Source: an uncultured Phycisphaeraceae bacterium (GTDB lineage: Bacteria; Planctomycetota; Phycisphaerae; Phycisphaerales; UBA1924). From it: a DNA stretch of 64,000 bases. Positions 8,250 to 13,628 of the stretch are shown in pieces (the first letter of the stretch is position 1; every line of letters begins with the position of its first letter). Under the pieces are notes generated by a model. The model was not told the origin of the DNA and ran no database searches. It was given only the letters and a program-made list of their open reading frames with translations. Where the stretch lies: contig CAZNZC010000003.1 in the NCBI GenBank assembly GCA_964577425.1, positions 73,803-137,802 on the forward strand, read 5' to 3'. Position numbers and translations under genes: made by a program.

Positions 8250-9626
8250 TTACGGAGGAGATTGGGATCTTGTCCCCTCATAAAGATCAAAGCTCAACAA
8301 CCGACACTCGATGCTGCCGTTGAGAAACGCCCGCCGCCGCCCGGGCTTCAGCCCGATCCGCTTGGCCAGATGCGGACTCCCTGTGAACACATGCCCGGTC
8401 CACCCCGCGCACTCCCGCTTGAAGAAGTCCCCGATGGCGGCATAGGTCGCTTCCAGTTCGGCCGCATCGCCCATCCGCTCGCCGTACTCGGGATTCAGGA
8501 TGATGTGCCCCGTAGGTCGGCACTCCGTGCCGACTCTTTCTTTCTCCGACACGGAGTGCCGCTCTCCAACAGTCGGCACGGAGTGCCGACCTACCGGCAG
8601 CGGTGTCTTTCGAAAATCACACTCAACAAACCGGATCAGATGCTCCACCCCCGCGGCCTGAGCGTTCTTCCTCGCGGCATGAATCGCCCCCGGATCGTGG
8701 TCGCTGGCGACAATGGTAGGTCGGCACTCCGTGCCGACTCCTCTTGGTACATCGGCACTCCGTGCCGATTCTTCTCCCGATTGTCGCTCCGATTGCCGCT
8801 GCTTCGAAGATGTCGGCACGGAGTGCCGACCTACCCTGCGGCGAACGCCCTGCCACAACTCCCCCACATCCCAGTTTGTTTTCGTGATCGCATAGTCCGA
8901 CCGCAGCAACCCCGGCGCCCGCCCTGCCGCGATCAACGCCGCCTCGATCGCCAGCGTCCCCGCCCCGCACATCGGATTCACCAGCGGCGTGGTTCCATCA
9001 AATCCCGCCGCCAGCAGCACCGCCGCCGCCAGCGTCTCCCGCATCGGCGCCGCATGGGGCAGATGCCGATACCCCCGGTTGGACAAAGACTGCGCATTGA
9101 TATTCAAAAACACCGCGGCCCGGTCATCCTTCCAATACAGACTCAGCACCACCCCCCGCCGCTCCGGCCCGGCGTCGGGCCGAGCGCCGGTCTTCCTGAC
9201 CATCCGATCGCAGATCGCGTCCTTGACGACCAGGGCCGGATACATCTGGTTGTCGATCGTGGGCGTGTCGGAGGACGCCCGGATGGTGATGTAGCCGCCT
9301 TGGGAGGGGATGAGATCCTCCCACGGATACGCCGCGATCTCTTTGTAGAGCGCCTTGGGCGACGGGCAGCGGAAGCGGGCCAACTGCCACATGACATGGG
9401 TGGCGGTGCGCAGCCGCAGGGCCAGCTCCATCGCCTGCTCCAGCGTGGCCCCGACCTGGAGGTAGGTCGGGTGCTCCTCCTGGAACTCGGTCCCTTCCCG
9501 CCCCCAGCCGAACGCTTCCAACTCGGCCCGGAGAATGGGCGCGGTATGCGGAGCGCAGGTGATGCGGGTGGACGAGCGTTTGGTGGGGGGAGGGGGCACG
9601 GGTAGGGAAGGATAGGGATCGGCCAT
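8250..9626 (-). CDS. THUMP-domain class I SAM-dependent RNA methyltransferase (RlmL/RlmK N-domain-like, COG0116)
   Basis: 458 aa with an N-terminal THUMP-like region, SAM-binding PMCGAGTLAIEAAL and motif IV NPEYGERMG. The ATG at 9626 overlaps the upstream stop (TGATG). The CDS carries two in-frame repeat inserts. Confidence 0.8.
   Translation of the reverse strand: MADPYPSLPVPPPPTKRSSTRITCAPHTAPILRAELEAFGWGREGTEFQEEHPTYLQVGATLEQAMELALRLRTATHVMWQLARFRCPSPKALYKEIAAYPWEDLIPSQGGYITIRASSDTPTIDNQMYPALVVKDAICDRMVRKTGARPDAGPERRGVVLSLYWKDDRAAVFLNINAQSLSNRGYRHLPHAAPMRETLAAAVLLAAGFDGTTPLVNPMCGAGTLAIEAALIAAGRAPGLLRSDYAITKTNWDVGELWQGVRRRVGRHSVPTSSKQRQSERQSGEESARSADVPRGVGTECRPTIVASDHDPGAIHAARKNAQAAGVEHLIRFVECDFRKTPLPVGRHSVPTVGERHSVSEKERVGTECRPTGHIILNPEYGERMGDAAELEATYAAIGDFFKRECAGWTGHVFTGSPHLAKRIGLKPGRRRAFLNGSIECRLLSFDLYEGTRSQSPP
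8512..8595. repeat. REPIN-like inverted doublet of REP-A inside the methyltransferase CDS
   Basis: GTAGGTCGGCACTCCGTGCCGACTCT (8512-8537) faces GTCGGCACGGAGTGCCGACCTACC (8572-8595), with a degenerate copy between them. Encoded peptide: VGRHSVPTVGERHSVSEKERVGTECRPT. Confidence 0.9.
8713..8834. repeat. Second REPIN-like REP-A cluster inside the methyltransferase CDS
   Basis: REP-A (+) at 8713-8737, a variant at 8748-8769 and REP-A (-) at 8810-8834. Encoded peptide: GRHSVPTSSKQRQSERQSGEESARSADVPRGVGTECRPT. Confidence 0.9.
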
Positions 9627-10354
9627 CAGGATGGGGGGGGCAATCGGGAATGGGGTGCCGCCAGAACTCCCGAAGTTGGCGGCGGGGTGGCGGTGATGTA
9701 GTCCAGGCAGGCCCGGATTTGAAGGCGGGCGGCGATTTCGGTCATGGGGAGGCGGTCGAGGTGTTCGGACACCACGCGGATGTAGATCTCAAGCATGGCT
9801 TGCTCGTTGAGTACATGAAGAAGATAGCCGATGCCGCAGAGATGGCGGGGAAGTGTCGGCACTGGTCGCGTGTGGTAGGTCTTGCCATTCTGTTTCCAAG
9901 TTTGGCGGGGTATGCACCGGCCGATGACGGCGAGCATGCCTTCGTGGGTCCGCTTCGGTTCGATCTCGGCCTTCCAGAACCGGGCCGCGAGATCAGCGAT
10001 TTCGCGGGCGGCGTGGAGACAGGATGCCTCGTCCGTGAGCGGCCAGGCCTGCATGCAATCTGGGTACGGGCAGATGATGCGTCCGTCGAACGGGCAGGAG
10101 GAAGCACAGTACTGGTCGTCCCAAGAGGCTTCAAACAGAAACTGATCAAGATAAAGGGACCGCACAGCGATTTCGACATAGCGGAGCGTGAGATCGGCCG
10201 TCGAGTAGCGGTTTCCCCGCAGGCGGAGGTAGGCGAGGGAGATGTTATCTTCGACGACGAGATGCCCGTACTTTGGTTTCAGAAGCACGCCGCGGGCGAC
10301 CATCTCCTCATGGAGTCGGGCCATCAGGAGTTTGACGCGGTCCTTGGGGAGCAT
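9626..10354 (-). CDS. Hypothetical protein
   Basis: 242 aa from the ATG at 10354 (MLPKDRVKLL...). The track ORF extends to 10489, but that part is repeat-module sequence. I recognised no family. GC is moderately lower (74 of 120 by hand at 9841-9960). The stop overlaps the methyltransferase start. Confidence 0.5.
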   Translation of the reverse strand: MLPKDRVKLLMARLHEEMVARGVLLKPKYGHLVVEDNISLAYLRLRGNRYSTADLTLRYVEIAVRSLYLDQFLFEASWDDQYCASSCPFDGRIICPYPDCMQAWPLTDEASCLHAAREIADLAARFWKAEIEPKRTHEGMLAVIGRCIPRQTWKQNGKTYHTRPVPTLPRHLCGIGYLLHVLNEQAMLEIYIRVVSEHLDRLPMTEIAARLQIRACLDYITATPPPTSGVLAAPHSRLPPPS

Positions 10355-10399
10355 GGGCGGATTATTGGGCGACCCCGGTTCATACGGATCGCCCCTGAA

Positions 10400-10768
10400 T
10401 CTCGGGAGTGGCCAGACCGACAAGCCGCGCCCGCAAGGAAGCGGCCGAACTCGCGCGGGGGGCGGGAGAGCCGGGGTAGCCCGCCTCACCGAACTTGCCC
10501 CACGACGAGCCCGGAGCGTCAGCGACGGGGTCTTCTACAAGCCCCGAGCTTGAGCGAGGGGGAGGGAGGGGAGGAAGGGAGGGATCGAGGACTCATCATG
10601 GGCATGGCCTGAACGACAAGCCGCGACCGCAAGGGAGCGGCCGAGTGACGCACGCGATCGTTTCGCCCGGCAAACGACAGCGAGCCGGAAAACCCGCTCC
10701 CTTTCGACGAATGTTTGGTGGGGGGAGGAGTGGGTACGGAAGGGAAGGATAGGATCGGCCATCAGGGA
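10400..10768. repeat. Mosaic repeat spacer (modules D, G, purine-rich, F, D, and a duplicated start-codon segment)
   Basis: D-type module CGACAAGCCGCG.C.GCAAGG.AGCGGCCG at 10418-10447 and 10614-10644. The 45-nt module at 10505-10549 matches 33356-33400 with one mismatch. The F-like GAGGACTCATC module is at about 10578-10606. 10706-10767 duplicates the 5' end of the methyltransferase gene. Confidence 0.85.
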
Positions 10769-11542
10769 TCAGGGCCGCATCGCCCGGCTCACCGTCCTCG
10801 GGCTGACGCGGCGGCCTTGGTTGTCAAGAAACAGCCTTTGATTCGGGAACAGCCATTGAAGCCCGACATCGATATCGATGCCGTCCATCAGGCGTTCATA
10901 GATCAGGTTGTAGACCGTGCGTCGGGTCACGCGGGTGTAGGGGCCGACAAAGTGGTCGCCACCGTCATACCTGGGCTCGACCACCACGCGGCCCGTGGCG
11001 TCGATGTAGCCCGAGCGAAGCCGGTCTGCGTACGGGCCGGTGCCGCGTTCCGTGCGGACATGGGCCATGCCGTTGACGAACGGCTCGACATAGGGATACA
11101 CCGCCTCAAATGCCAGCGATCCATCGGCGCGAATGTAGCCGCGCGTGCCATCGGCGTGGCCGGTGAAGGCGAACCCCTCGGTGAACTCCTTCTGGGCGGT
11201 GCGATAGACGGCGGGGAGGACGATCTCGCCGACGCTGTTCTTGTAGCCCTGCATGTGTGAGGTGAAGCCGTGGGTGGTGCGGAACGGCTGGGATTCGTCG
11301 AAGAAATGGATCAGGTCAATGGGATCAGCGACCGGGCGGGTTGGGATGCCGGTCGCGTGGGCGTGGCCGAGGTAGCGGCCCCACACGCGGTCATGGGCGG
11401 CGTTGCTCAGGTGAATGGAGGCGACATGGATCGCGTAGAGGCTGGGGAGGAAGGCGACCCCCAGGACCACCCAGATCCAGCGACGGCGAGGTTTGGGGGT
11501 GGGTGCGGGCATTGGGGAGAATAGGGATCGGGGATCAGCCAT
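10769..11542 (-). CDS. WG-repeat-containing protein with an N-terminal membrane anchor
   Basis: 257 aa from the ATG at 11542. Has an N-terminal TM segment (WIWVVLGVAFLPSLYAI) and repeated motifs of the WG/KWG type: GYIRADGSLAFEAVYPY and GYIDATGRVVVEPRYDG. Confidence 0.65.
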   Translation of the reverse strand: MADPRSLFSPMPAPTPKPRRRWIWVVLGVAFLPSLYAIHVASIHLSNAAHDRVWGRYLGHAHATGIPTRPVADPIDLIHFFDESQPFRTTHGFTSHMQGYKNSVGEIVLPAVYRTAQKEFTEGFAFTGHADGTRGYIRADGSLAFEAVYPYVEPFVNGMAHVRTERGTGPYADRLRSGYIDATGRVVVEPRYDGGDHFVGPYTRVTRRTVYNLIYERLMDGIDIDVGLQWLFPNQRLFLDNQGRRVSPRTVSRAMRP

Positions 11543-11667
11543 CAAGATAAGCCAGTTGCAACGGTCGTACGAGATGTCATTCTGGATGATGGCGTACTCC
11601 GCTATCGAACAGGTCTCGGAGGCATTGTGGGCCTTGGTGGAGGTAGCGGTGGAGGCGGCGGTGGGGT

Positions 11668-11685
11668 AAAAAGGGGAGGCCCCTT
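11668..11685 (-). terminator. Candidate intrinsic terminator of the top6A / TM-ORF operon
   Basis: On the minus strand: AAGGGG-CCT-CCCCTT followed by TTT. It overlaps the TAA stop at 11684-11686. The stem is short (6 bp). Confidence 0.45.
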
Positions 11686-12319
11686 AGGTGTAATTGGGGT
11701 TCTGGGGCTCGGTCGAGCGGGCGGCGGCGGCGGAGGGTTCTGGAGTGGAGGCCATTCTGCTAACATTTAGGCTGCTCCCGTGGATGGTTACTGCGGAGGA
11801 TCTTGCAAGCGCGCTTAGGACAATCAGTACGATCCCGAGAATGAACGCAAAAAAACAAATAGAATTTAATTTGCTTGTCAATGTATCATGCTGTGGGAGC
11901 ATCGATTCGGACATTCGGCGATGCTCAACATCGAAAGCTCTCGGGAACTCCTGCCAGATACTATCTGTTTGTAACGAAAATTCTTTAGATTTGTTATAGG
12001 CGAGCGCCTTGGAAAGGAGCGCTACTATGATTGCTGTCGCAAAGCTTGCCGCGGCCCAGACCGCGATTGGTGATGGCTTGCCCGTACCAAAAACGACTGA
12101 TCCGGTTGCAAAGGCAACCCCTGCGCCCGACAGAGACAAGAGCCATTTATCTAGATTTTCGTATATGTAACGAGTCTGTTGAAAAGCTTGCTGTCGTGCT
12201 TCTAAAAAATACTGGTACTGTCTCTCTAGTACCGCGTAATCCTCATCGTCTACGGATCGGAGTGCTTCGGCCAGCGACTCGCTAGTTTCAGTTTCGTACT
12301 TGACCGGTTCGTCATCCAT
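11684..12319 (-). CDS. Low-GC small membrane protein (3 predicted TM), unknown family
   Basis: 211 aa from the ATG at 12319, which overlaps the top6A stop (TAATG). It has an acidic, helical N-terminal ~60 aa, then the TM segments WLLSLSGAGVAFATGSVVFG, IAVWAAASFATAIIVALL and ICFFAFILGIVLIVLSAL. Hand count at 11761-11880 gives 52 of 120 G+C. Confidence 0.6.
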   Translation of the reverse strand: MDDEPVKYETETSESLAEALRSVDDEDYAVLERQYQYFLEARQQAFQQTRYIYENLDKWLLSLSGAGVAFATGSVVFGTGKPSPIAVWAAASFATAIIVALLSKALAYNKSKEFSLQTDSIWQEFPRAFDVEHRRMSESMLPQHDTLTSKLNSICFFAFILGIVLIVLSALARSSAVTIHGSSLNVSRMASTPEPSAAAARSTEPQNPNYT

Positions 12320-13539
12320 TAATCCAACCAATCCTCAGCCTTCAACCGCGCCGGCACATACTCCTCCGTTACATAGGAGATGTCCTTCGTGATGAGGGAT
12401 TCTACCTCCATCTTGAACCCGTTGTCAAGCATCCGCTTGATCTCCTTCTGCCAGCCCTTGTGGTCCTTGAACCACGGGTAGGCCGCGATCTGCTTCGCCC
12501 GCTGGATGTCGCGGTCGTTCAGGTCGATCTTCACATCGTCGGAGAGTTCGCAGCGGTCGTAGTCCATCGCGCGGATGCCCATGAACTTCGCGTCGGGGAT
12601 GGCCAGGCGTTCGGACTCGAAGGCCAGCGAGATCGAGCCTTGCTTGATGACCGAGTAGATGTAGTGCCCCCACGGGTCGCAGTCGAGCAGGCAGTAGATG
12701 GGCAGGCCGTGCTCCTTGTTCAGCCGGTGGAGCAGGCGGCGGACGCCGCGGGGGGGCTGGCCGGAGCCTTCGGTCAGGATGCAGTTGTGCTTCTCCCAGA
12801 AGCGGTCCTCGTTGAAGCGCTGCCAGACGGTGTCCTTCTCGACATGCAGGACGAAGTCGGCCTGGACATTCTTGAACTGGAGGATGTCCGGCTCGCAGAT
12901 GGACGGGATGCCGTAGCCGCCGGTGCCCATGCGCCGGCAGTTGATCTCGTCGCCGTTGTCGATGACGGTGATGTTGCCGACCATCGTGCCCCGCTTCTTG
13001 GCGAAGACATGGAGTTCTTCACGCAGCGAGCCGAGCGTCACCTCGAGGTCTTCGAGCACCGAGTCGGACTCGGTCTGGTCGTCGAAGGTCTTCTCCTTGG
13101 TGCCCTCGATGGTGTGCAGCCCGGCGTAGAACATGCCGCGGAGGCTGGAGGTCTTGTTCTGCCCGATGAGGTTGATGATCCCGTTGGAGTGGATCAGCGT
13201 CTGCATGAACTTGCGGGCCTGGCCGAGGTTGAACAACTGCCGGGTGTTCGAGGCGTCGCCCATGCGGAGAATGCCGGCCTTCTTGTCCCACTTCGTGTTC
13301 GATGCGGCCCGGGTGGGGACCTCGAAGGCAGGCTCGACATTCGACAACGCCGCCGACACCACGCCCTCCGCCAACTGGTTGATGCGCCCGGCCGTGTGCT
13401 CGTCGCGGGCGGCGCGGTGGGCTGTCTTGGGCCGTGCCGGAGCCTTGGTGCCAATCCCTCCGCCCGTGGCCTTCTTGGAAGCCTTCTTGCCGGAGGAGGG
13501 GGAGGTCTTGGTGGATTTGGTGGTGGTCTTCTTGGCCAT
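12319..13539 (-). CDS. top6A: Type IIB DNA topoisomerase subunit A (Top6A / Spo11 family) with a Lys-rich N-terminal tail
   Basis: 406 aa. Candidate catalytic Tyr in SSLRGMFYAGL (5Y-CAP winged helix), Toprim Glu in DFVLHVEKDTVW, DxD in LLDCDPWGHYIY, and a C-terminal AYPWF..GWQKE..GFKMEVESL. The N-terminus reads MAKKTTTKSTKTSPSSGKKASKKATGGG. Confidence 0.85.
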   Translation of the reverse strand: MAKKTTTKSTKTSPSSGKKASKKATGGGIGTKAPARPKTAHRAARDEHTAGRINQLAEGVVSAALSNVEPAFEVPTRAASNTKWDKKAGILRMGDASNTRQLFNLGQARKFMQTLIHSNGIINLIGQNKTSSLRGMFYAGLHTIEGTKEKTFDDQTESDSVLEDLEVTLGSLREELHVFAKKRGTMVGNITVIDNGDEINCRRMGTGGYGIPSICEPDILQFKNVQADFVLHVEKDTVWQRFNEDRFWEKHNCILTEGSGQPPRGVRRLLHRLNKEHGLPIYCLLDCDPWGHYIYSVIKQGSISLAFESERLAIPDAKFMGIRAMDYDRCELSDDVKIDLNDRDIQRAKQIAAYPWFKDHKGWQKEIKRMLDNGFKMEVESLITKDISYVTEEYVPARLKAEDWLD

Positions 13540-13559
13540 GCGTGGACTTCTTCTCTGTT

Positions 13560-13628
13560 GGTGGCACAGGCATCCCGCCTGTGCAGAAGGGTATCGCGCC
13601 GCGGACGATCGGGGGGCAGGACACCCCC
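13560..13628. repeat. REP-B copy plus a G-rich hairpin module
   Basis: GGTGGCACAGGCATCCCGCCTGTGC (13560-13584) and GGGGGGCAGGACACCCCC (13611-13628), immediately upstream of top6A. Confidence 0.8.

What the first reader, a model, noticed from the sequence alone, without database searches (positions are those of the whole stretch)
11684..12319. Low-GC 3-TM ORF translationally coupled to top6A and closed by its own terminator
A hand count at 11761-11880 gives 52 of 120 G+C, against 46 of 60 in a housekeeping stretch. This is the sharpest compositional drop in the window. The ATG overlaps the top6A TAA (TAATG at 12317-12321). A short hairpin plus T-run (11668-11685) overlaps the stop codon. The two genes therefore look like a self-contained bicistronic cassette. 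The protein has an acidic helical head (ETETSESLAEALRSVDDEDYAVLERQYQYFLEARQQAF) and three TM helices. That architecture is reminiscent of small membrane effector or anchor proteins of conflict systems, including 2-TM SLATT-like effectors, but I cannot assign a family. The compositional mismatch between the two coupled genes is itself odd.
Basis: partly seen in the sequence, partly recalled or inferred. Interest (0 to 1): 0.65.

Follow-up and report, generated by a model that had tools for sequence, protein, structure and literature searches.

The report
Foreign two-gene membrane cassette after top6A
The low-GC gene is real, but it is horizontally acquired cargo in a hypervariable, defence-gene-rich slot that begins at the stop codon of the housekeeping gene top6A, and it comes with a hidden, overlapping, never-annotated gene for a small proline-rich protein.

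Summary
A 211-aa ORF (11684-12319, minus strand) starts on the top6A stop codon (TAATG) and is the window's sharpest GC trough (GC3 0.52, against 0.92 for top6A).

The gene is real. It belongs to a rare unnamed family, about 20 representatives among 1.8 billion proteins. The family has a DKWLLTLSGG motif and a confident three-long-helix model: N-terminus inside, three TM helices, C-terminus outside.

The "terminator" is not one. Its letters encode K-G-P-P-L-F of a second ORF in the +1 frame (11602-11766, 54 aa, proline-rich). That ORF follows family members in at least seven of the ten loci examined, and no gene finder has called it.

top6A is not part of the cassette. It is the conserved core gene, normally in a top6B-top6A operon. 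In close relatives (top6A about 90% nt identity) homology breaks exactly at the stop codon and other cargo sits there. One sister genome carries a family allele only 23% identical. Across Phycisphaerales, 19 of 78 loci have a low-GC gene welded to that stop codon, including AbiGi, HEPN, FRG, PD-(D/E)xK and DUF2971 genes. Three loci keep a duplicated top6A 3' end.

SLATT membership is not supported, and the function is untested. My best guess is a conflict module built around a membrane effector.

The parts
11684..12319 (-). Gene for a 211-aa membrane protein (P0001). It has an acidic N-terminal helix, the motif ENLDKWLLSLSGAG, three TM helices and a Ser/Thr/Ala-rich tail. GC is 0.50 and GC3 is 0.52.
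   Evidence: Translation. A full HMMER scan of 1.84 billion representatives found 20 family members. Alignment A1: D57 is invariant, W59, L61, F93 and K104 nearly so. AF2 mean pLDDT is 82, with helices 14-77, 84-124 and 126-179. Charge distribution fits N-in/C-out. GC3.
11602..11766 (-). Unannotated overlapping ORF in the +1 frame, 54 aa: MLAEWPPLQNPPPPPPARPSPRTPITPKGPPLFTPPPPPPLPPPRPTMPPRPVR. It overlaps the last 83 nt of the 3-TM gene and runs 82 nt past its stop. It is the second gene of the module.
   Evidence: The ORF is listed. The same +1-frame arrangement is seen in the other family loci with DNA in hand. Synonymous codon variation in the motif (Leu as CTT/CTA/TTG/CTC, Gly as GGG/GGA/GGC) shows selection in the +1 frame, and the main frame has stops there. 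In L097 it is a separate ORF with its own ATG 2 nt after the 3-TM stop. The motif occurs only behind family genes in 1.03 Mb of loci. It is absent from a 15-billion-protein collection.
12317..12321 (-). TAATG: the top6A stop codon overlaps the start codon of the 3-TM gene by one base. This is the left border of the variable slot.
   Evidence: DNA homology to six close relatives ends at 12318-12324. Contigs of runs X4 and X9 replace everything from 12319/12321 onward.
12319..13539 (-). top6A (DNA topoisomerase VI subunit A, 406 aa). It is a host-typical core gene (GC3 0.92). It serves as the docking site and is not part of the cargo.
   Evidence: NCBIfam NF003333 equivalog scores 515 bits against a cut-off of 465. 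Pfam gives TP6A_N, Topo_VI_alpha and Toprim. Orthologs are 70-95% identical, and top6B is found in the fetched flank of most loci, directly upstream in nearly all.
11668..11685 (-). It is really the codons K-G-P-P-L-F of the proline-rich ORF.
11546..11601 (-). 56-nt spacer between the proline-rich ORF and the WG-repeat gene. It holds a weak, candidate relic of the top6A 3' end. 11568-11592 matches 12374-12398 at 20 of 25 bases, reading I-x-x-D-I-S-Y in frame.
   Evidence: The match is not significant on its own (z = 2.3). It is read by analogy with the clear duplications in L035, L074 and L037.
10769..11545 (-). WG-repeat protein gene. It forms the right flank of the slot.
   Evidence: Pfam WG_beta_rep. 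Homology to relatives L090 and L094 resumes at 11488 and 11512.
12399..12428 (-). Promoter-like match TTGACA-18 nt-TAGAAT (11 of 12) inside the top6A 3' end, about 80 nt upstream of the cargo start codon. Its significance is unknown.
   Evidence: One site was found against 0.7 expected in shuffles, and it lies in conserved coding sequence.

Best explanation
The ORF is the first gene of a horizontally acquired two-gene module.

Gene 1 encodes an inner-membrane protein: N-terminus in the cytoplasm, three TM helices continuous with a cytoplasmic three-helix stalk, C-terminus outside. Gene 2 overlaps it in the +1 frame and encodes a 54-aa proline-rich protein carrying the motif PKGPPLFTPPPPPP.

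The module sits in a hypervariable slot that begins exactly at the stop codon of the core gene top6A. In Phycisphaerales that slot repeatedly receives promoterless, low-GC cargo, much of it of anti-phage or immunity type. The cargo is presumably expressed by read-through and translational coupling from top6A.

Cargo appears to arrive by recombination at the conserved 3' end of top6A, which some loci still show duplicated behind the cargo.

Shown here:
- the gene and its family are real;
- the second ORF is real;
- the composition is foreign;
- close relatives replace the cargo at this exact site;
- three other genomes keep the 3'-end duplication.

Inferred: the function. I think the membrane protein most likely oligomerises into a membrane-perturbing effector. 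The co-translated, disordered, poly-proline partner would bind its cytoplasmic stalk and keep it inactive, which makes this a toxin-antitoxin-like or abortive-infection-like module. I do not think it is a partner of topoisomerase VI.

The confidence of 0.6 is for the whole statement. I put the structural and evolutionary parts at about 0.85 and the functional guess at about 0.35.
For: The gene is real:
- 20 relatives turned up in a full HMMER scan.
- The motif and three nearly charge-free helices are conserved across the family.
- The AF2 model has mean pLDDT 82.

It is foreign:
- GC3 is 0.52 against 0.92 for top6A.
- Every family gene examined has a lower GC than its host locus. The gap is 2 points in the short low-GC contig L083 and 6-17 points in the others.

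The second gene is real.

The slot is variable:
- In relatives with top6A about 88-91% nt identical, homology stops at the stop codon. It resumes in the WG or THUMP gene, with unrelated sequence between.
- The cargo found there includes a 424-aa ORFan, 302-, 385- and 220-aa ORFans, and an FRG/PDC-S15 gene.
- The sister genome L090 (Top6A 95% aa identity) has a family allele only 22.7% identical to P0001, with GC3 0.51 and its own proline-rich ORF.

The pattern is lineage-wide:
- 19 of 78 species-level loci have a gene welded within 12 nt of the top6A stop. Their GC3 is on average 0.25 below that of top6A.
- That cargo includes DUF2971/PDC-S31, PDDEXK_4/PDC-S26, DUF1877, DinB, AbiGi and HEPN genes.

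Insertion mechanism: direct repeats of the last 155, 91 and 97 nt of top6A bracket the cargo in L035, L074 and L037.

Not a Topo VI partner:
- Only 1 of the 80 species-level top6A loci carries the family.
- Four of 10 family loci follow unrelated core genes: a thiolase, an RNase HII-like gene, a succinyl-CoA-ligase-like gene and a peptidase M29 gene.
Against: - There is no functional evidence of any kind. No RNA run holds the stretch.
- No PADLOC, PHROG or Pfam family matches above threshold. No PDB or viral fold matches. The defence or TA role therefore rests on neighbourhood alone.
- Six of 10 family loci lie behind top6A, in both deep subtypes. That bias is strong, and a functional link to top6A would also explain it.
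- The window itself shows no significant top6A 3' duplication (z = 2.3).
- The top6A 3' end is not mosaic relative to close relatives. The insertion mechanism is therefore inferred from other genomes.
- Three distant family members carry a proline-rich tail in frame, on the predicted outer side of the membrane. That fits poorly with a cytoplasmic partner.
Confidence: 0.6

Rival explanations
1. The proline-rich segment is not a separate protein. A programmed +1 ribosomal frameshift near the end of the 3-TM ORF appends it as an extracytoplasmic, TonB-like proline-rich tail. The module would then be one gene making two products.
For: - The proline-rich frame is +1 relative to the 3-TM frame in all nine distinct loci examined.
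- The distant members P0017, P0016 and P0009 carry proline-rich tails in frame.
- The C-terminus is predicted to lie outside the membrane, where a proline-rich spacer makes sense, and the small ORF has no signal peptide.
- Several main ORFs end in CCC-stop, a context known from the literature to be prone to +1 slippage.
Against: - Every +1 ORF has an ATG at or just before the start of its proline-rich part. That ATG sits at the same position in subtype B: MRQPVLEQ, MCQIVLEQ and MTIPMLEQ.
- In L097 the ORFs do not overlap, and the ATG lies 2 nt after the stop.
- The Pro-stop contexts lie at non-homologous positions. They follow automatically from reading CCN-rich sequence one base out of frame.
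- No shared slip site was found.
Confidence: 0.18
2. The membrane protein is a functional accessory of topoisomerase VI, for example a membrane tether or regulator of Top6A. That would explain why it is translationally coupled to top6A.
For: - Six of 10 family loci lie downstream of top6A, and both deep subtypes are among them.
- Start codons overlap the top6A stop in the window, L014 and L090.
- In this genome top6B is not next to top6A.
Against: - Only 1 of the 80 species-level top6A loci has the family.
- Close relatives with 92-95% identical Top6A carry unrelated cargo in the slot.
- Four family loci follow unrelated core genes.
- GC3 is foreign.
- Alleles at 23% identity sit beside a 95% identical Top6A. 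That is not how interacting partners co-evolve.
Confidence: 0.07
3. The pair is a peptide-toxin system. The small Pro/Arg-rich peptide resembles ribosome-targeting proline-rich antimicrobial peptides and would be the active agent. The 3-TM protein would be its immunity or export factor.
For: - Subtype-B peptides read RRPPQPRPRPNPNP and PQPRPHPQPKGPPVRRPPQPRP. To my knowledge these look like PRP-repeat antimicrobial peptides.
- Deeply divergent alleles at one locus in sister genomes are typical of bacteriocin-immunity pairs.
Against: - There is no leader peptide, double-glycine motif, ABC exporter or modification enzyme in any locus.
- The window's own peptide is poly-Pro rather than Pro-Arg.
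- No family hit supports this reading.
Confidence: 0.1
4. The ORF is a spurious reading frame in an AT-rich spacer downstream of top6A.
For: - The first word-based search of 5.8 billion clusters found only the query itself.
- No annotated family matches.
Against: - Twenty homologs have a conserved motif and conserved hydrophobic helices.
- The structure model is confident.
- Gene callers found the ORF independently in two runs.
Confidence: 0.01

Closest known systems
Core defence hotspots and defence islets flanked by core genes (for example the cDHS of Pseudomonas aeruginosa, Johnson et al. 2023, PMC10250203)
   Same: This is a fixed chromosomal site between conserved core genes. Related genomes carry different, mostly low-GC cargo there, including known or candidate anti-phage genes, and no mobility genes are in sight.
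   Different: - The slot is tiny, one or two genes.
- It begins at the very stop codon of the upstream core gene.
- The cargo is often start-stop overlapped with top6A, which implies expression from the core gene's own transcript.
- Three loci keep a duplicated core-gene 3' end.
Genomic islands that integrate into the 3' end of a tRNA, tmRNA or protein gene and restore it, leaving a partial direct repeat (from my own knowledge, including the 'tycheposons' of marine cyanobacteria)
   Same: Direct repeats of the last 91-155 nt of the target gene bracket the inserted DNA in L035, L074 and L037. The target gene stays intact.
   Different: - No integrase is present.
- The inserts are only 0.46-1.4 kb.
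- RecA-dependent Campbell-type recombination of small circles would explain the repeats equally well.
- No clear repeat survives in the window itself.
SLATT 2-TM effector domains (Burroughs et al. 2015; Pfam SLATT_1-5, NCBIfam NF0336xx)
   Same: A small membrane protein with flanking helices, found in a conflict-type neighbourhood.
   Different: - SLATT models do not match (best E = 0.03 for one member and 0.89 for P0001).
- There are three TM helices, not two.
- No nucleotide-signalling, TIR or RT partner appears in any of the 10 loci.
Pfam PF24838, '8xMP' octameric membrane protein family
   Same: Eight family members, including the L090 allele, give colinear, nearly full-length matches to the 136-position model. 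The best are E = 2.3e-4 (L090 allele) and 0.0027 (P0012).
   Different: - All scores (14-21 bits) lie below the gathering cut-off of 30 bits.
- P0001 itself does not match.
- I found no paper that describes the family, so I cannot say what it does.
Two-gene toxin-antitoxin and abortive-infection pairs such as AbiGi/AbiGii
   Same: Two small, overlapping, co-oriented genes with a patchy distribution and foreign composition. In L083 an AbiGi gene sits between top6A and the family member.
   Different: - No toxicity or neutralisation has been shown.
- The partner is a low-complexity poly-proline peptide encoded by overprinting. To my knowledge that matches no described antitoxin.

Membership tests
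SLATT domain effectors | Significant match to a SLATT profile (Pfam SLATT_1-5 or NCBIfam SLATT models) | tested here: not met
   P0001 against SLATT_4 gives E = 0.89 over 23 residues. Among the 20 members, only one hits SLATT_1, at E = 0.031. No Pfam SLATT hit is listed.
SLATT domain effectors | Two-TM core | tested here: not met
   Three nearly charge-free hydrophobic helices are conserved across the family. The AF2 model shows three long helices.
SLATT domain effectors | Fusion or adjacency to SMODS, SLOG, TIR, RT or other sensor or nucleotide-signal generators | tested here: not met
   None is present in the 10 family loci. The only conflict-type neighbour is AbiGi, in L083.
Pfam PF24838 (8xMP) | Score at or above the gathering threshold (30 bits) | tested here: not met
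   The best score is 21.4 bits (L090 allele). P0012 scores 18.0. P0001 has no hit.
Pfam PF24838 (8xMP) | Remote homology shown by consistent, colinear, sub-threshold matches | tested here: inconclusive
   Seven of 20 members plus the L090 allele match. Where the span was listed (six proteins), the match covers roughly positions 3-135 of the 136-position model.
Pfam PF24838 (8xMP) | Octameric assembly | not testable with these tools
   Only monomer prediction is available.
DNA topoisomerase VI subunit A (the neighbouring gene) | Equivalog-level profile match with the 5Y-CAP and Toprim domains | tested here: met
   NF003333 scores 515.5 bits against a cut-off of 465. Pfam gives TP6A_N, Topo_VI_alpha and TOP6A-Spo11_Toprim.
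DNA topoisomerase VI subunit A (the neighbouring gene) | Adjacent top6B partner | tested here: not met
   tblastn found no Top6B in the 64-kb window. Most related loci have top6B in the fetched flank, directly upstream in nearly all.
Core-gene-flanked defence hotspot | The same flanks in related genomes with different cargo between them | tested here: met
Core-gene-flanked defence hotspot | Known or candidate defence genes among the alternative cargo | tested here: met
   AbiGi, PDC-S15, PDC-S26 and PDC-S31. HEPN. DUF2971 and PDDEXK_4.
Core-gene-flanked defence hotspot | The cargo in this window protects against phage | not testable with these tools
   There is no PADLOC hit and no experiment.
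Intrinsic (Rho-independent) terminator at 11668-11685 | Stable GC-rich stem followed by a U-tract, conserved among homologous loci | tested here: not met
   The scan did not list it. The fold z-score of the surrounding stretch is -0.86. Homologous loci spell the same codons without a hairpin or T-run.
Two-gene toxin-antitoxin module | Two small, adjacent or overlapping, co-oriented genes that are inherited together | tested here: met
   The proline-rich ORF follows the family gene in nine of the ten distinct loci, all except L089. The KGPP motif itself is found in seven of them and nowhere else in 1.03 Mb.
Two-gene toxin-antitoxin module | One product is toxic and the other neutralises it | not testable with these tools
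   This needs expression experiments.

The most novel reading that the evidence does not exclude
The stop codon and conserved 3' end of the housekeeping gene top6A act as an integrase-free docking site. Phycisphaerales exchange small promoterless defence cassettes through it, by recombination that duplicates the gene's last 90-155 nt. One of these cassettes is a previously undescribed two-gene module: a stalked 3-TM membrane effector plus an overprinted poly-proline micro-protein. The micro-protein's translation depends on EF-P, so it could act as a sensor of translational takeover.
Probability: 0.25. Interest if true: 0.8.

Novelty: new variant of a known kind. Interest (0 to 1): 0.58.

Why it matters
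1. The finding adds an unnamed membrane-protein family. It also adds a conserved overlapping micro-protein gene that no gene finder has called among 15 billion predicted proteins. This shows that low-complexity tails of small membrane proteins can hide a second gene.

2. It documents a very small but very active variable slot, welded to the stop codon of an essential-type gene in a poorly studied bacterial order. Known and candidate anti-phage genes sit among its cargo. In three genomes a duplicated target end points to how the cargo gets in. Such slots are cheap places to mine for new defence genes in uncultured lineages.

3. It corrects a tempting misreading. Translational coupling to top6A does not make the two genes a functional pair.

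Tried and rejected
- The word-indexed search with P0001 found only the query itself. The profile version added little.
With A2 it gave one locus, which duplicates L084.
- The viral contig scan found nothing.
- The PDB sequence profile search gave nothing below E = 0.4. Foldseek against PDB and BFVD returned only generic long-helix bundles, with no hit at E ≤ 0.001 (best 0.015).
- PADLOC and PHROGs on all 20 members showed no consistent family.
- Literature searches for 8xMP/PF24838 found no description.
- No RNA-seq run holds the stretch, so co-transcription could not be tested.
- I tested whether the top6A 3' end in the window is a mosaic brought in with the cargo. It is not.
  - The lower GC3 of the last 30 codons is shared by all relatives, whatever cargo they carry.
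  - Identity to close relatives stays at 93-94% up to the stop codon.
- I tested whether Pro-stop endings mark a frameshift site. They lie at non-homologous positions and follow from frame geometry.
- I looked for duplicated upstream-gene ends behind the module in the other nine family loci. None was clear.
- There is no synteny between the window's wider flanks and the 80 species-level loci.
I could therefore not look for top6B or further family copies elsewhere in this genome.
Full report
**The observation**

The ORF at 11684-12319 on the minus strand translates to 211 residues. Its ATG shares one base with the TAA of the upstream gene, as TAATG at 12317-12321.

This is the only place in the window where a gene-sized stretch drops below 0.56 GC. 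The minimum is 0.483, against a window mean of 0.692.

The contrast is clearest at third codon positions. GC3 is 0.52 for this ORF, 0.92 for top6A and 0.73-0.96 for seven other neighbours.

Read depth in the source metagenome is flat across the junctions and shows no alternative joints (run X1). The arrangement is therefore fixed in the sampled population.

**The upstream gene is a genuine, host-typical top6A**

It passes the NCBIfam equivalog cut-off (515 bits against 465) and has all three Pfam Top6A domains.

Orthologs at 68-83% identity occur in 80 species-level Phycisphaerales genomes, and metagenomic relatives reach 95%. In most of the related loci top6B lies in the fetched flank, directly upstream in nearly all, so the ancestral unit is a top6B-top6A operon.

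In this window no Top6B is found, and homology to relatives ends about 13540-13583.

**The ORF is a real gene of a rare, unnamed family**

A word-indexed search found only the query itself. A full HMMER scan of 1.84 billion representatives found 20 proteins, six at E ≤ 1e-10 including the query.

The proteins align over their whole length and share these features:
- an invariant Asp;
- a nearly invariant Trp, in a motif that reads E-N-x-D-K-W-L-L-T-L-S-G-G in the majority consensus;
- a nearly invariant Lys at the end of the second helix;
- three hydrophobic helices almost free of charge (1.3-2.6 K+R per 100 residues).

By contrast, the N-terminal region has 12.9 K+R per 100 residues and the loop between helices 2 and 3 has 16.7. 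By the positive-inside rule the topology is N-terminus inside, C-terminus outside.

AlphaFold2 run on the family alignment gives mean pLDDT 82, above 90 in the core. It shows three long helices (14-77, 84-124, 126-179). Each crosses the membrane and continues into a cytoplasmic three-helix stalk.

No solved or viral predicted structure resembles the model beyond generic helical bundles. No PDB sequence is related.

**Family assignment**

- SLATT models do not match (E = 0.03-0.9).
- PADLOC and PHROGs give nothing consistent.
- The only recurrent signal is a colinear, nearly full-length but sub-threshold match to Pfam PF24838, '8xMP'. Seven of 20 members and the L090 allele show it, at 14-21 bits against a cut-off of 30. 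I treat this as a lead for remote homology, not as membership.
- I found no paper describing that family.

**A second, hidden gene**

I was looking at the spacer behind the ORF when tblastx showed that the letters around its stop codon are conserved in other family loci, but in another frame.

In nine of the ten distinct loci for which I have DNA, all except L089, the +1 frame is open over the end of the 3-TM gene and beyond it. The open stretch overlaps the last 74-237 nt of the 3-TM gene in eight of them and runs 67-217 nt past its stop in seven. In L097 it only begins after the stop, and in L083 the 3-TM frame has no stop there. An ATG stands at or just before the start of the proline-rich part. 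The frame encodes a proline-rich peptide of 39-63 residues (98 in L087).

In the window this is 11766..11602: MLAEWPPLQNPPPPPPARPSPRTPITPKGPPLFTPPPPPPLPPPRPTMPPRPVR.

Evidence that the +1 frame is the one under selection:
- The motif P-K-G-P-P-L-(F/Y)-T-P-P-P-P is kept while its codons vary synonymously. Leu appears as CTT, CTA, TTG and CTC. Gly appears as GGG, GGA and GGC. Pro appears as CCT, CCG, CCA and CCC.
- In the main frame the same stretch contains stop codons or lies behind the stop.
- In L097 the 3-TM protein ends right after its third helix. The proline-rich ORF starts with its own ATG two bases after that stop, so it is a separate gene there.

Across 1.03 Mb of fetched loci the motif occurs only directly behind family genes. 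None of five such peptides exists in a collection of 15 billion predicted proteins.

It is not in the terminator scan, and the stretch around it folds no better than shuffles. It is not a hairpin in the other loci.

A +1 frameshift that fuses the two products remains possible. Three distant members carry proline-rich tails in frame. I rate this at about 0.18.

**The slot**

DNA homology between the window and six close relatives runs through top6A at 88-91% and stops at 12318-12324, the stop codon. It resumes only in the WG-repeat gene (11488-11512) or in the THUMP methyltransferase gene.

Contigs of two other metagenomes show the same thing. Other letters (946 and 1702 of them) replace the 965 and 888 bases of the window.

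The replacements are:
- a 424-aa ORFan whose ATG overlaps the top6A TGA;
- ORFans of 302, 385 and 220 aa;
- an FRG-domain gene that hits PADLOC PDC-S15 at 7e-65.

The closest relative of all is L090 (Top6A 95% identical). Its slot was left uncalled by the gene finder. It actually holds a 213-aa member of the same family with a TTG start overlapping the TGA, GC3 of 0.51 and its own proline-rich ORF. That allele is only 22.7% identical to P0001 and 57% identical to P0014.

Two sister genomes thus carry deeply divergent alleles of one module at one site.

**The pattern across the order**

Among 78 species-level loci with usable flank, 19 have a gene starting within 12 nt of the top6A stop. Their GC3 is on average 0.25 below that of top6A. 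For non-welded neighbours the gap is 0.13 (Mann-Whitney p = 3e-4).

Identified cargo:
- DUF2971 (PDC-S31);
- PDDEXK_4 (PDC-S26);
- DUF1877;
- DinB;
- AbiGi;
- a HEPN protein.

DUF3800 and SUKH immunity genes sit just upstream of top6A, between top6B and top6A.

No conserved sequence follows the stop codon.

In three genomes the cargo is followed by a direct repeat of the end of top6A:

| Locus | Repeat length | Identity | Insert | Cargo |
|---|---|---|---|---|
| L035 | 155 nt | 95% | 1.4 kb | HEPN gene |
| L074 | 91 nt | 96% | 461 nt | 152-aa ORF of unknown function |
| L037 | 97 nt | 78% | 581 nt | DUF1877 gene |

Insertion therefore duplicates the target's 3' end. Elements that integrate into gene ends do this, and so would Campbell-type homologous recombination of a small circle carrying that end.

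The window has only a weak candidate relic. 11568-11592 matches 12374-12398 at 20 of 25 bases and reads I-x-x-D-I-S-Y in frame. The match is not significant on its own.

The top6A 3' end in the window is not mosaic.

**Site bias of the family**

Of 10 distinct family loci, six lie behind top6A, and they include both deep subtypes. In L083 an AbiGi gene sits between top6A and the family member.

The other four follow a thiolase, an RNase HII-like gene, a gene end that I read as succinyl-CoA ligase beta, and a peptidase M29 gene. These junctions range from overlapping to about 120 nt apart.

Conversely, only 1 of the 80 species-level top6A loci carries the family.

Every family gene examined has a GC of 0.42-0.51, lower than its host locus (0.45-0.67). 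The gap is 2 points in the short contig L083 and 6-17 points in the others. I read this as cargo from a shared mobile pool with a preference for, or easy recombination at, the well-conserved top6A end. I do not read it as a Topo VI partner.

**What it does**

Nothing here tests function.

The anatomy is a small oligomer-style membrane protein with a cytoplasmic stalk, plus a co-translated, disordered, poly-proline partner. The behaviour is patchy distribution, foreign composition, allelic hyperdivergence, and residence in a slot full of abortive-infection and immunity genes.

Together these point to a conflict module. My preferred mechanism is a membrane-perturbing effector restrained by the micro-protein. 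Runs of six or seven prolines need EF-P for translation, which is established knowledge. The partner's supply would therefore fall quickly when translation is disturbed.

All of this is inference. I give the functional part about one chance in three.

**Earlier notes of this scan**

- One note recorded the lack of top6B beside this top6A. That agrees with my result, and relatives show where top6B normally sits.
- Another described a repeated start-codon-bearing segment at 9626, 10762 and 11542. I confirmed that copies 1 and 2 share about 70 nt. They bracket the block between the WG and THUMP genes, the same style of target-end duplication.
- A third note, on another Phycisphaerales genome, described a low-GC HEPN-like gene welded to the stop codon of a mutase gene in a defence slot. 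That agrees with the pattern found here.

Noticed in passing
window 13540-13583, with L092, L094 and L096: In close relatives the order is ndk - top6B - (0 to 3 inserted genes) - top6A. In the window, homology stops about 13540-13583. Upstream lie a DUF4230 gene, a membrane protein gene and fliD/fliS instead. top6B is not in the 64-kb window.
   Followed up: partly
L092 2960-3763; L094 2126-3986; L085 182-706; gaps listed: The top6B-top6A intergenic region is a second variable slot. It is 150-350 nt in most genomes but over 600 nt in about 20 of 72. The inserted genes there include DUF3800, a SUKH-like gene and ORFans. The L085 SUKH/SMI1_KNR4 gene lies just upstream of top6A, but top6B is not on that short contig.
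   Followed up: partly
window 9556-9630 and 10690-10766, with a weaker copy at 11480-11545: About 70 nt covering the start codon and first codons of the THUMP methyltransferase gene (ATGGCCGATCC...CCCCCCACCAAAC) are repeated at 10762. The two copies bracket the 'hyp' block at 9626-10489, which L090 and L092 lack. This looks like the same target-end duplication as at top6A, but at a gene's 5' end.
   Followed up: partly
L035 7037-7191 and 8591-8745; L074 7049-7139 and 7605-7695; L037 7126-7222 and 7806-7900: Direct repeats of the top6A 3' end bracket small cargo: a HEPN gene, a 152-aa ORF and a DUF1877 gene. The downstream copies still read as Top6A C-termini. They are intact in L035 and L074 and decayed in L037.
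   Followed up: yes
L083 76-828 and 867-2219: An AbiGi gene (PADLOC E = 3e-10) overlaps the top6A stop. A 450-aa family member follows it, in which the 3-TM frame runs on into a fourth TM helix and a C-terminal domain of about 165 aa with no known family. The proline-rich +1 ORF lies inside it.
   Followed up: partly
window 12399-12428 (minus strand): A near-consensus sigma-70-like promoter match (TTGACA, 18 nt, TAGAAT) lies inside the conserved coding end of top6A, about 80 nt before the cargo start codon. It could give the slot its own promoter, or it could be chance.
   Followed up: no
last 30 codons of top6A in the window and in L014, L085, L087, L090, L092, L094 and L096: GC3 of the last 30 codons of top6A is lower (0.60-0.80) than that of the block just upstream in each of these eight genes, whatever cargo follows. 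The reason is unknown. It could be mRNA accessibility for coupled translation, or a recombination-prone segment.
   Followed up: partly
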